Positions 1,006 through 3,485 of a DNA stretch of 5,205 nt are shown here, one piece after another. A model generated the notes under the pieces. That model did no database searches and was not told the DNA's origin. It saw only the letters and a list, made by a program, of their open reading frames with translations. The position numbers and the translations under genes were made by a program. Numbering within the stretch: position 1 is the stretch's first letter; the number at the start of each line of letters is the position of its first letter. The DNA is from a virus (taxonomy: Duplodnaviria; Heunggongvirae; Uroviricota; Caudoviricetes): positions 1 through 5,205 of IMG/VR virus record IMGVR_UViG_2693429662_000020. The stretch is one strand, 5' to 3'.

Positions 1006-2877
1006 TTATGATGATGCTGGTGCATTTATCTCCAGCACCAGACTTTCTATCTCAACGCCATACGCTGCATTTTTGGTAATATCCGTCAGCGTCAGCGCAT
1101 TCAGCCCCAGTGTCAGACTGTCTTTTATGACCTGGAATGCCGGGCCAGCCACTCCATTCAGTTTCGGAGTAACCGTGGCACTGCCGGCGGTGAACACCAG
1201 CTCCAGCGTCTGCCAGTCGTTACTGTAATTCCCGAACTCGCCCAACTTTGTGTTTCCGGCTTTCTTGTGATGCATCAGATTCAGTTTGCCGTCTGTGGTC
1301 TGGGTGAAGAACGACATCAGGAACGGGTTACCAGTTCCGGTCATCGCCACGACGTCAGGTAACGCTACATCGGTATACAGATAAATTCCCAGACCGAACT
1401 GGTTGTTGGTCAGTGCGCCTGACAGTCGAAACTTACAGCTCAGTCTGCCACCCCGTGTCAGCAGGGAGACTGCGTCATCCACCGGATGCATCAGGGACCA
1501 GGTTTTATTGCTCTGCTTGGTAACCTTAAACACACCATCTTCCAGCGCAACACTGCCGCCGGTGATGGTCCAGCCCTGCGCAGCAGCCTCTCCGGCTGTC
1601 GGCAGCAGGGAGACTGTACGAACGGATGTGTCACCATCAGACGGCCCCGATGGCGTGTCGCCGCCGGGCGAGGGTTTAATCTCCGGTGCGGTACCGCTGA
1701 TGAAGGCGCTGGTTCGACCAACTGCGTTCAGAATAGCGGTTGCCAGGCGATCCGAAATAATGCCCCTGCGCGCCCATGAACTGAAATGTGTCGGACGATT
1801 TGACGATACCCAATTACCATTACTACGGGATTGCGCGCCGTAATAACCTGCATCAGCAATATCCGGGTCTTCTGCCGGTAAGTTGGTGGGCGTGTTGTTG
1901 CCGTTACCGTCGGTCATGAACGGCACAAAGAAAACGTTGTCGCTCTCCCTGTTTTTGTATGCGCCGTAGACGGAGTCATACTGTGTGCCGTATGTGTTTT
2001 TCCAGTAATACGTCGTGTCGCCACAAATCCACGGTACAACTGCAGCACTGCCGCCATGGCACTGCGCGTTAAATCCGGAAAGGTCAGTACGGAACTGCTT
2101 CAGCATGGCCGTGAACAGGTCCGGTTGCTGTGCGTAGGTGGCAGCGCTCATGTCAAATTCGCCCTGCATCCAGCACACCGCCAGCAACACATTTTTCGGG
2201 TTCTTCTGTAATGCCGCTTTGGTGCGTGCGATCAGGTCCTGATATAACGGTTTACCCACACCCCAGCGTACCGAATCCTGGCTGGCCCCCGTGTCCGCAC
2301 TGAATGTCCCCTCCGCGCCCTGGGTGAATGCCGAACCACCACGACAGCATGGTACCAGCAGGATCCCCGCGTTATTCGGGATATACGGAAGCAGTTTTTT
2401 GGCAATATGTAAGCCCTGGCCGACACAGCCGTACTGCCCTTTGCTCAGGTCTGCCTTCGGATGATTCAGTGCGCTCATATCCTGAACATCATGCAGGCAG
2501 TGGTCTGCCGGAATGATGTCGTTAAATGCGCATGCTTTACCACCGGGAGTCACTGTGTTGCGACGGGCCAGTTGCTTAATGCGTGGGTGGGGCGCATCGT
2601 AAGAATCCGGAAGCGGAAGCCCTTCACCGTAAGCCATGGCATTGGATTGCCCGGCCAGTACGATGACGTAGTACCACTCCGGCTCAGTTGCACCACTGAC
2701 GACCACATCACCTTCTGCTGCAATCGCCTGCATCAGGGTATAAGGGGTTATGGCCACCGGACTACCAAACGGCTGCCAGCCCTCTTTCAGTTTATGTGTC
2801 AGCTTTTCCGCAAGATCTGACGGCGACGCCGCCCTGACAACATCATAGTGTTTAAATGCCATGGTTCTTTCCACCAT
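1006..2877 (-). CDS. nanS-p: Prophage-encoded sialate 9-O-acetylesterase, NanS-p type (N-terminal DUF1737-like region plus SGNH/DUF303 esterase), 623 aa
   Basis: Long ORF with the SGNH-hydrolase block I motif in VIVLAGQSNAMAYGEG (Ser78 as candidate nucleophile), preceded by a roughly 60-aa N-terminal region typical of NanS-p. Its position immediately upstream of the holin matches the Stx-phage gene order stxAB-nanS-p-S. The start could alternatively be Met6 (ATG at 2860-2862), which has the better SD-like GGTGGAAAG. Confidence 0.9.
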   Translation of the reverse strand: MVERTMAFKHYDVVRAASPSDLAEKLTHKLKEGWQPFGSPVAITPYTLMQAIAAEGDVVVSGATEPEWYYVIVLAGQSNAMAYGEGLPLPDSYDAPHPRIKQLARRNTVTPGGKACAFNDIIPADHCLHDVQDMSALNHPKADLSKGQYGCVGQGLHIAKKLLPYIPNNAGILLVPCCRGGSAFTQGAEGTFSADTGASQDSVRWGVGKPLYQDLIARTKAALQKNPKNVLLAVCWMQGEFDMSAATYAQQPDLFTAMLKQFRTDLSGFNAQCHGGSAAVVPWICGDTTYYWKNTYGTQYDSVYGAYKNRESDNVFFVPFMTDGNGNNTPTNLPAEDPDIADAGYYGAQSRSNGNWVSSNRPTHFSSWARRGIISDRLATAILNAVGRTSAFISGTAPEIKPSPGGDTPSGPSDGDTSVRTVSLLPTAGEAAAQGWTITGGSVALEDGVFKVTKQSNKTWSLMHPVDDAVSLLTRGGRLSCKFRLSGALTNNQFGLGIYLYTDVALPDVVAMTGTGNPFLMSFFTQTTDGKLNLMHHKKAGNTKLGEFGNYSNDWQTLELVFTAGSATVTPKLNGVAGPAFQVIKDSLTLGLNALTLTDITKNAAYGVEIESLVLEINAPASS

Positions 2878-2889
2878 CTGAAAAATGAT
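2875..2889. repeat. Left copy of an imperfect 15-bp direct repeat (CATCTGAAAAATGAT) flanking the AT-rich island; overlaps the nanS-p start codon
   Basis: Matches 13 of 15 positions with CATCTGACAAAATCA at 3471-3485; read directly from the sequence. Confidence 0.4.
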
Positions 2890-3052
2890 TCTTTAAAATA
2901 CCTGACATGTAATACAGAAAAAACACAAAACCATACCTTAAATAAAAACCTCATCATCAAGCAGATATGCATGGATAAACTACAAGACGAGATATAAACC
3001 ACCCTGCATTTAAATAAACAATAAACAACATCAGAAAAATAATTCTGCTCTA

Positions 3053-3082
3053 TGGTTTACAATCAAAAATATCATTTATACT
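3053..3082 (+). promoter_or_regulatory. Candidate sigma70 promoter for the orphan ORF (-35 TGGTTT or TTTACA; -10 TATACT at 3077-3082)
   Basis: The -10 hexamer TATACT matches consensus at 5 of 6 positions. The -35 is weak or mis-spaced (15 or 18 nt). AT-rich DNA produces such matches easily, so this is low confidence. Confidence 0.25.
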
Positions 3083-3122
3083 TTTCAGAACATCACCAGC
3101 AAGGCATAAACAAGGAAACTAA

Positions 3123-3458
3123 ATGAAGTGGATTGTGATTGATACAGTTATCCAGCCATCATGCGGAATATCTTTTTCAGTCATATGGAGTAAAATAAAA
3201 TTAATAATCTGGTATCAATCGGATGCTTTCTTACCTCCTGAAAGTATATTTACACTGACTCACACAGGCATCATGCTCAATAACAAAGTGCTACCTGTAA
3301 CCATTTACAACGTAGTACCATTCAATAAAACATTCTGGAATTTAATCAAAAACAGCCAGGAATGCCCTACAAATACAGATAACGTATTGAATGAATGCTT
3401 TAATAACCGTTGCACTCTGCAAATATGTCCTTATGGGCTAAAACAACAAAGTCCATAA
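3123..3458 (+). CDS. Hypothetical orphan protein, 111 aa, AT-rich codon usage, Cys-rich C-terminus
   Basis: It is the only ORF of at least 60 codons in the AT-rich island, where stop codons are frequent (rough chance of 111 stop-free codons about 2e-4 per start). SD AAGGA at 3112-3116 sits 6 nt before the ATG. I recognise no homolog. It is convergent with the phage late genes. Confidence 0.45.
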
Positions 3459-3470
3459 GGAGTTTACTCA

Positions 3471-3485
3471 CATCTGACAAAATCA
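3471..3485. repeat. Right copy of the imperfect 15-bp direct repeat (CATCTGACAAAATCA)
   Basis: Matches 13 of 15 positions with 2875-2889; marks the tRNA-proximal edge of the AT-rich island. Confidence 0.4.

What the first reader, a model, noticed from the sequence alone, without database searches (positions are those of the whole stretch)
2875..3485. Imperfect 15-bp direct repeats bracket the AT-rich island exactly
CATCTGAAAAATGAT (2875-2889) and CATCTGACAAAATCA (3471-3485) match at 13 of 15 positions and coincide with the two composition boundaries; the spacing is 596 bp. The left copy overlaps the nanS-p ATG. This looks like an insertion or recombination scar, meaning the island was acquired as a discrete module. 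In an island-less ancestor the hairpin at 3494-3513 would sit about 20 bp upstream of the nanS-p start. By my rough estimate a chance match of this quality at both borders is unlikely (about 1e-3 allowing for positional slack), though composition bias raises that.
Basis: seen in the sequence. Interest (0 to 1): 0.5.

Follow-up and report, generated by a model that had tools for sequence, protein, structure and literature searches.

The report
Chance repeat inside known iraL cassette
The two 15-base look-alike sequences are most likely a coincidence, and the AT-rich island they sit in is an already known prophage cargo gene (iraL, a stabiliser of the stress sigma factor RpoS) that is swapped as a block at different breakpoints.

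Summary
The two 15-mers are at the stated coordinates, 596 bp apart. They match at only 10/15 without gaps; 13 matches need two gaps. The left copy has closer partners elsewhere in the window: 3029-3043, and 3891-3905 inside IS186. The chance of such a match at the two borders is about 1-3%, not 1e-3.

The AT-rich island is real and discrete. It is the iraL cassette (window 2864-3493), encoding an IraM-family RssB anti-adaptor. Its mRNA start, published from 5' RACE, maps to 3090. It lies antisense in the known lambdoid 'moron' slot, between the sRNA STnc100 (3484-3673, minus strand) and nanS-p. The hairpin at 3493-3514 is the STnc100 terminator.

Related prophages without the island do not join the hairpin to nanS-p through one 15-mer. 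They carry a different 216-239 nt cassette, which scores as the AgvB anti-sRNA in the one locus where Rfam recognised it. Homology breaks at 2863/2864 and 3493/3494, so the 15-mers lie 11 and 8 nt inside the cassette.

The predicted empty junction was absent from 5,426 complete E. coli genomes, IMG/VR and metagenomes, with positive controls. Diverged iraM-type cassettes lack the repeat.

Verdict: discrete module yes, insertion scar no. Low interest.

The parts
2875..2889 (.). Left 15-mer CATCTGAAAAATGAT. It lies in the nanS-p upstream / iraL far-upstream region, 11 nt inside the cassette border.
   Evidence: Variants CATCTGAAAAATAAT and an IS1-interrupted copy occur in related loci.
3471..3485 (.). 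Right 15-mer CATCTGACAAAATCA. It lies in the 25-nt spacer between the iraL stop codon and the 3' end of STnc100. On the minus strand it continues the T-rich stretch after the STnc100 terminator (TTTATATTGATTTTGTCAGATG).
2864..3493 (+). iraL cassette, the AT-rich island: the unit that is exchanged against other cassettes.
   Evidence: BLAST breakpoints at window 2863 and 3494/3491 in L030, L036, L041, L075 and L057. Composition. Present in 1,446 of 5,426 complete E. coli genomes.
3123..3458 (+). iraL coding sequence (111 aa), an IraM-family RssB anti-adaptor.
   Evidence: NCBIfam NF007393 scores 162 bits against a cutoff of 121. RefSeq names it 'anti-adapter protein IraM'. It is 62% identical to K-12 IraM, in line with the 58.9% published for IraL (PMC4045071).
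3056..3090 (+). iraL promoter region. Candidate -35 TTTACA at 3056-3061 and -10 TATACT at 3077-3082; transcription start at 3090.
   Evidence: The 5' RACE mRNA start ACATCACCAGCAAGGCATAAACAAGGAAACCA of CFT073 iraL (PMC4045071) matches window 3090-3121 at 31 of 32 positions. The hexamers are my reading of the sequence. The consensus scan did not list them (15-nt spacer).
3484..3673 (-). sRNA STnc100 (Rfam RF02076), convergent with iraL.
   Evidence: cmscan 132.4 bits against a gathering score of 47, E 5.7e-30, full model. The same family is found at the same place in L002, L003, L004, L030 and L057.
3493..3514 (-). It marks the right breakpoint of cassette exchange.
1006..2862 (-). nanS-p (SASA-family sialate O-acetylesterase). 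The conserved start is the ATG at 2862-2860, which marks the left breakpoint of cassette exchange.
   Evidence: RefSeq CDS in L001. Phage annotations yjhS / 9-O-acetyl-N-acetylneuraminic acid deacetylase. Homology of many Stx1 phages ends at query position 563 = window 2862.
3750..3826 (-). tRNA-Arg (anticodon tct), part of the prophage late-region tRNA cluster upstream of STnc100.
   Evidence: ARAGORN and Rfam tRNA at 70 bits.

Best explanation
The two 15-mers are a coincidental resemblance between two A-rich stretches near the ends of a known prophage cargo module. They are not a scar.

The module (window 2864-3493) is the iraL cassette. It is an AT-rich 'moron' with its own sigma-70 promoter, transcribed antisense to the phage late operon. 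It encodes an IraM-family anti-adaptor that, according to published work, blocks RssB and so stabilises RpoS.

The cassette occupies the known variable slot of lambdoid prophages between the sRNA STnc100 and the first conserved late gene, nanS-p. In one island-less locus (L003) this slot demonstrably holds the anti-sRNA AgvB.

Alternative cassettes replace one another as blocks. The exchange most likely happens by homologous recombination in the conserved flanks, namely the nanS-p coding sequence on one side and the STnc100 terminator and body on the other. This explains why the breakpoints fall at the nanS-p start codon and at the foot of the terminator hairpin.

Shown: gene identities, breakpoints, absence of the predicted empty site, and the weak statistics. 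Inferred: homologous recombination as the exchange mechanism, and chance as the origin of the similarity.
For: Repeat quality:
- 10/15 ungapped and a 7-nt exact core.
- P about 0.01-0.03.
- The left copy has closer matches at 3029-3043 and inside IS186 at 3891-3905.

Identity of the island:
- NCBIfam IraM at 162 bits and RefSeq naming.
- The published iraL 5' RACE start matches 3090-3121 at 31/32.
- The hairpin is the STnc100 terminator.

Breakpoints:
- Alignments with five island-less loci stop at 2863 and restart at 3494 or 3491. Right flanks are 96.8-98.1% identical and left flanks 89.5-95.2%.
- Junction sequences are shown.

Alternative occupants of the slot:
- A 223-nt cassette containing AgvB (RF02702, 96.5 bits) in L003.
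- The slot is described as a moron site with convergent sRNAs in PMC4104026.
- Spacer lengths between the nanS-p start and the hairpin are 216-239, 588, 632/633, 722 and 1096 nt in all loci held. None is short.

Empty-site tests:
- All negative, with working controls.
- No short cassette contains CATCTGA.
- The diverged iraM-like cassette of Stx2_EH1910 and K-12 iraM lack the repeat.
Against: A 1-3% chance probability is not large, and the similarity can be stretched to 17 of 21 columns. The two copies sit at roughly symmetrical distances (11 and 8 nt) from the two breakpoints.

An ancestral empty site could simply be extinct or unsampled. The breakpoints seen today reflect later homologous exchange and say nothing direct about how iraL first entered the slot.

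The junction BLAST needs a 28-nt exact word, so a diverged empty site would be missed in the E. coli genomes. The pattern scans required an exact hairpin and an exact nanS-p start motif.
Confidence: 0.87

Rival explanations
1. The 15-mers are the decayed footprint (target duplication or microhomology) of the original illegitimate insertion of iraL into an ancestral junction. In that junction the STnc100 terminator lay about 37 nt from the nanS-p start. That ancestor has not been sampled.
For: The match is somewhat better than the average random pair (P 0.01-0.03). Both copies lie within about 10 nt of the cassette ends. The orientation is direct, as expected for a duplication.
Against: - No empty site in 5,426 E. 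coli genomes, IMG/VR or metagenomes.
- The 11 and 8 nt between the repeats and the breakpoints travel with the cassette, not with the flanks.
- The homologous but diverged iraM-like cassette occupies the same slot, so presumably descends from the same insertion. It has no counterpart of the right copy, and its left counterpart is dissimilar.
- The left copy matches unrelated places better.
- The cassette has no mobility gene and no terminal inverted repeats.
Confidence: 0.07
2. The 15-mers are core sites of a site-specific (att-like) cassette exchange system that swaps iraL against anti-sRNA cassettes.
For: The slot does hold alternative cassettes with sharp borders.
Against: - The alternative cassettes contain no CATCTGA and no good match to either 15-mer at their ends.
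- The borders coincide with the ends of conserved genes rather than with the repeats.
- No recombinase is encoded in or next to the cassette.
Confidence: 0.02
3. The two sites are functional look-alikes, for example binding sites for one regulator or sRNA acting on both nanS-p and the iraL 3' end or the STnc100 terminator.
For: Only their position near two expression signals: the nanS-p ribosome-binding site and the STnc100 terminator tail.
Against: They are not conserved in the diverged iraM-like cassette or in K-12 iraM. Natural variants occur in the left copy (G to A at position 13, and an IS1 insertion). No known motif was recognised.
Confidence: 0.02

Closest known systems
iraL of uropathogenic E. 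coli CFT073 (Hryckowian et al. 2014, PMC4045071), an IraM-family RssB anti-adaptor
   Same: The mRNA 5' end matches at 31/32. The protein hits NCBIfam IraM above cutoff and is about 60% identical to K-12 IraM. The gene is AT-rich, horizontally acquired and widespread in E. coli (1,446 of 5,426 genomes).
   Different: None found for the gene itself. The paper places iraL on the 'potB genomic island'. Here its immediate setting is resolved as the slot between STnc100 and nanS-p of a lambdoid prophage.
Moron insertion site with convergent sRNAs downstream of PR' in lambdoid and Stx prophages (Tree et al. 2014, PMC4104026; AgvB RF02702, AsxR RF02703)
   Same: The position is the same, between the cargo/tRNA region and the conserved late ORF nanS-p. 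The cargo is on the strand opposite to late transcription and convergent with the sense-strand sRNA (STnc100 here). One island-less relative (L003) carries AgvB exactly there.
   Different: Here the antisense partner is a 630-nt protein-coding cassette instead of a 51-60 nt anti-sRNA.
Target-site duplications or att scars that flank mobile elements and integrated islands
   Same: A pair of direct, imperfect short repeats near the two ends of a compositionally distinct segment.
   Different: The repeats are not at the breakpoints. No single-copy empty site exists. The similarity is weak (10/15 ungapped). No transposase, integrase or terminal inverted repeats are present.

Membership tests
Insertion scar / target-site duplication | The repeats directly abut the ends of the inserted segment. 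| tested here: not met
   Breakpoints are at 2863/2864 and 3493/3494. The repeats are at 2875-2889 and 3471-3485, that is 11 and 8 nt inside.
Insertion scar / target-site duplication | Related genomes show an empty site with one copy of the repeat joining the flanks. | tested here: not met
   - Junction queries against 5,426 E. coli genomes gave no match. A control shows a true empty site would be found and the island-bearing window is not hit.
- The pattern with a 5-50 nt spacer gave 0 hits in IMG/VR and, for 20-50 nt, 0 in metagenomes. With a 210-240 nt spacer it gave at least 120 and 97 hits.
- The GTDB representatives scan was uninformative because its positive control also gave 0.
Insertion scar / target-site duplication | Repeat similarity is clearly beyond chance and each copy is the other's best partner. 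| tested here: not met
   10/15 ungapped. P is 0.01-0.03. The left copy matches 3029-3043 and 3891-3905 better.
Insertion scar / target-site duplication | The inserted segment carries mobility functions or terminal inverted repeats. | tested here: not met
   iraL is the only ORF in the segment with a recognised family. No inverted repeat pairs the two ends.
IraM/IraL RssB anti-adaptor | The protein matches the family model above the curated cutoff. | tested here: met
   NF007393 at 162 bits against a cutoff of 121, covering residues 1-110.
IraM/IraL RssB anti-adaptor | iraL-type promoter and 5' UTR, as opposed to K-12 iraM. | tested here: met
   The published 5' RACE sequence matches window 3090-3121 at 31/32. 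The K-12 iraM upstream region aligns poorly.
IraM/IraL RssB anti-adaptor | Binds RssB and stabilises RpoS. | not testable with these tools
   Known only from experiments on CFT073 IraL (PMC4045071).
STnc100 sRNA (RF02076) | Covariance-model score above the gathering threshold over the full model. | tested here: met
   132.4 bits against 47, model positions 1-206.
STnc100 sRNA (RF02076) | Intrinsic terminator at the 3' end. | tested here: met
   A stem of 9 pairs at 3514-3493 followed by TTTATATTGA on the minus strand.
Lambdoid prophage moron | Lies in the late region downstream of Q/PR', is present or absent among similar phages, has deviant composition and its own promoter. | tested here: met
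   - Context in L001: antiterminator, tRNAs, iraL, nanS-p, holin, lysozyme.
- Polymorphism: 44 loci with iraL against 25 with a short cassette.
- GC is 0.30-0.35 against about 0.55 in the flanks.
- Promoter from published 5' RACE.

The most novel reading that the evidence does not exclude
The 15-mers are the last recognisable trace of a microhomology-mediated capture event that first placed an iraM-type gene into the anti-sRNA slot between STnc100 and nanS-p. The empty ancestral junction has since been lost from sampled prophages.
Probability: 0.05. Interest if true: 0.2.

Novelty: not a real feature. Interest (0 to 1): 0.1.

Why it matters
It matters little. As a proposed insertion scar, the repeat does not hold up.

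What is really there is already known: iraL, a horizontally acquired stabiliser of RpoS, next to the prophage sRNA STnc100 and nanS-p.

Two by-products are modestly useful. First, the cassette borders are now defined exactly (2864-3493). Second, iraL occupies the very slot that holds the anti-sRNA AgvB in at least one relative. This fits the accepted picture of modular exchange at the lambdoid moron site by recombination in conserved flanks.

Tried and rejected
- My first empty-site pattern used a 5-35 nt spacer. The predicted spacer is 37 nt, so I repeated the scan with 20-50 nt.
- The GTDB representative-genome scan was negative, but its positive control was negative too. It carries no weight.
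- I looked for iraL in independent genomic contexts to define a mobile unit. H69 turned out to be a deletion that fuses a tail gene to the iraL upstream region, and H70 an IS2 insertion. Both keep the STnc100 side.
- K-12 iraM lies next to icdC with neither nanS-p nor STnc100, and its flanks do not align. It gave no information on the repeats.
- An Rfam scan of the commonest alternative cassette (L030 type, 235 nt) gave no credible family. Only the L003 type scores as AgvB.
- The idea that the repeats are att-like cores for cassette exchange was dropped, because none of 58 distinct short cassettes contains CATCTGA.

Full report
**Observation**

The stated quality is overstated. Without gaps they agree at 10 of 15 positions, and 13 matches need two gaps. 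The only exact shared word is CATCTGA, which also occurs at 3891.

The left copy has better partners elsewhere in this 5.2-kb window:
- CATCAGAAAAATAAT at 3029-3043 (2 mismatches).
- CATCTGAAGAATGCG at 3891-3905 (3 mismatches).
- An exact 10-mer, ACCATCTGAA, at 3889-3898.

The last two lie inside an IS186 copy that is 100% identical to K-12 IS186A, so they cannot share history with the island.

I compared the two 50-nt border windows by local alignment. The observed score is 11. It is reached in 2.9% of dinucleotide shuffles and in 1.0-2.0% of random real window pairs 400-800 nt apart.

**What the island is**

The only ORF in the AT-rich stretch with a recognised family runs from 3123 to 3458 on the + strand.
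- It hits NCBIfam NF007393 (anti-adapter protein IraM) at 162 bits against a cutoff of 121.
- RefSeq names it IraM in 1,446 of 5,426 complete E. coli genomes.
- It is 62% identical to K-12 IraM.
- The 5' RACE start published for iraL of CFT073, ACATCACCAGCAAGGCATAAACAAGGAAACCA, matches window 3090-3121 at 31/32 (PMC4045071).

So this is iraL, the RssB anti-adaptor that stabilises RpoS in log phase. It has its own promoter, with a -10 TATACT at 3077-3082 by my reading.

**What the hairpin is**

Rfam places the sRNA STnc100 (RF02076) at 3484-3673 on the minus strand, with 132 bits and E 6e-30. The hairpin at 3493-3514, followed by TTTATATTGA, is its intrinsic terminator.

The right 15-mer lies in the 25-nt spacer between the iraL stop codon and the STnc100 3' end. 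On the minus strand it continues the T-rich stretch after that terminator.

**Context**

In a near-identical chromosome region (L001) the gene order is: Q antiterminator, methyltransferase, tRNAs, STnc100 region, iraL (opposite strand), SASA esterase (nanS-p), holin, YdfR, lysozyme. This is a lambdoid late region.

RefSeq starts nanS-p at window 2862 (MAFKHYD), not at the upstream in-frame ATG at 2877 that the left 15-mer overlaps. Relatives confirm this, because their homology begins exactly at that start codon.

**Island-less relatives**

I fetched 80 IMG/VR loci chosen only for a similar NanS-p N-terminus. By spacer length between the nanS-p start and the hairpin they split as follows:

| Spacer between nanS-p start and hairpin | Loci |
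|---|---|
| 632/633 nt (iraL cassette) | 44 |
| 223-235 nt (unrelated cassette) | 25 |
| 722 nt | 1 |
| 1096 nt | 1 |
| Truncated or otherwise different | 9 |

BLAST of the window against five island-less loci stops at window 2863 and restarts at 3494 or 3491. Right flanks are 96.8-98.1% identical and left flanks 89.5-95.2%. The junction sequences show CATG|GTTCTTTCC in the window against CATG|AATCCTCCC, and ...ATAAACAG|CCCCTCC against ...ATAAGAAAG|CCCCTCC.

The exchanged unit is therefore 2864-3493. The 15-mers lie 11 and 8 nt inside it and travel with the cassette, not with the flanks.

In phage PPyecE_EH1910 the short cassette contains AgvB (RF02702, 96.5 bits) on the same strand as iraL, tail to tail with STnc100. 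This is the arrangement Tree et al. described as convergent sRNAs at the moron insertion site, between the cargo and a conserved phage ORF (PMC4104026). In that locus iraL therefore takes the place of the anti-sRNA partner.

**The predicted empty site**

- I built two junction queries designed so that island-bearing genomes share fewer than 28 contiguous bases with them. Neither found anything in 5,426 complete E. coli genomes.
- A local control showed the same settings detect a synthetic empty site and do not hit the window itself.
- The pattern TTTAAATGNCAT-N{20,50}-CCCCTCCGGAGAGGGG gave 0 hits in IMG/VR and 0 in metagenomes. N{5,35} also gave 0 in IMG/VR.
- The same pattern with N{210,240} gave at least 120 and 97 contigs.
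- The GTDB representatives scan is uninformative, because its positive control also returned nothing.
- Across all loci held, the spacer lengths are 216-239, 588, 632/633, 722 and 1096 nt.

**Conservation of the repeats**

A diverged iraM-like cassette (588 nt) sits in the same slot of a Stx2a phage, between stx2B/STnc100 and nanS-p. It aligns with the iraL cassette along its length. It has CGCCAGCAAAGTAAT where the left copy would be and a gap where the right copy would be.

K-12 iraM has neither copy. None of 58 distinct short cassettes contains CATCTGA.

The commonest short cassette shows an end-versus-end local score of 12, higher than the 11 of the iraL cassette. The cause there is two unrelated GC hairpins. 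End-to-end resemblances of this size therefore arise in this slot without any insertion history.

**Conclusion**

The island is a real, discrete and already known module. The repeat is best read as coincidence between A-rich sequences.

Cassette turnover is best explained by homologous recombination in the conserved flanks, nanS-p and STnc100. That step is an inference from where the breakpoints fall.

A residual possibility of about 5-7% is that the 15-mers are a decayed footprint of the first capture of an iraM-type gene. The absence of any trace in the diverged sister cassette argues against it.

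Noticed in passing
window 1-127: The left end of the window is an IS1 terminus. All prophage matches start at 128. The bases at about 101-127 are the reverse complement of the IS1 end seen in L024 (GGTAATGACTCCAACTTATTGATAGTG). The prophage fragment is thus bounded by IS1 on one side and IS186 on the other. No complete E. coli genome in the collection covers 80% or more of the window.
   Followed up: partly
window 3863-5205: An IS186 copy, 100% identical to K-12 IS186A over 1,343 nt. It is inserted into a prophage tRNA gene. 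Homology with L030 ends at 3863, inside the middle of three tRNAs, leaving only about 21 nt of that tRNA's 3' end.
   Followed up: partly
L024, about 27 nt upstream of the nanS-p start (equivalent to window 2888/2889): In one IMG/VR contig an IS1 element is inserted inside the left 15-mer (CATCTGAAAAATGA|GGTAATGACTCC...). The iraL side is therefore disrupted there.
   Followed up: no
L086 (E. coli Ec-2844), equivalent to window about 3115: An IS2 sits immediately upstream of iraL. The match to the window starts at about 3115, between the mapped transcription start (3090) and the start codon (3123). In that strain iraL has therefore lost its native promoter.
   Followed up: no
L030-type loci: the 235 nt between the nanS-p start and the STnc100 hairpin: The commonest alternative cassette has a terminator-like hairpin followed by a T run (CCCGCGTCTCCCAGCGCGGGATTTTTTT) on the iraL strand. 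It matches no Rfam family (sequence). It may be an unclassified anti-sRNA or Pas-type sRNA variant.
   Followed up: partly
L057 811-1001 and 1279-1488: Some prophages (the class with an STnc100 BLAST offset of 718 nt) carry two tandem STnc100 copies upstream of nanS-p, scoring 136 and 165 bits.
   Followed up: no
window 3529-3654 (L001 4640-4765): RefSeq annotates a partial 'hypothetical protein' pseudogene on the + strand that lies entirely within the STnc100 sRNA gene. It is probably a spurious CDS call.
   Followed up: no
window 3718-3735, minus strand: A second terminator-like hairpin (GGCTCGCTTTTGTGGGCC followed by TTTTTTTT) lies between tRNA-Arg and STnc100. If it functions, STnc100 would need its own promoter or read-through.
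   Followed up: no
L085 (E. coli strain 361): A deletion joins the phage minor tail protein L gene directly to the iraL upstream region (equivalent to window about 2897). It removes nanS-p and the lysis genes but keeps iraL and STnc100.
   Followed up: no
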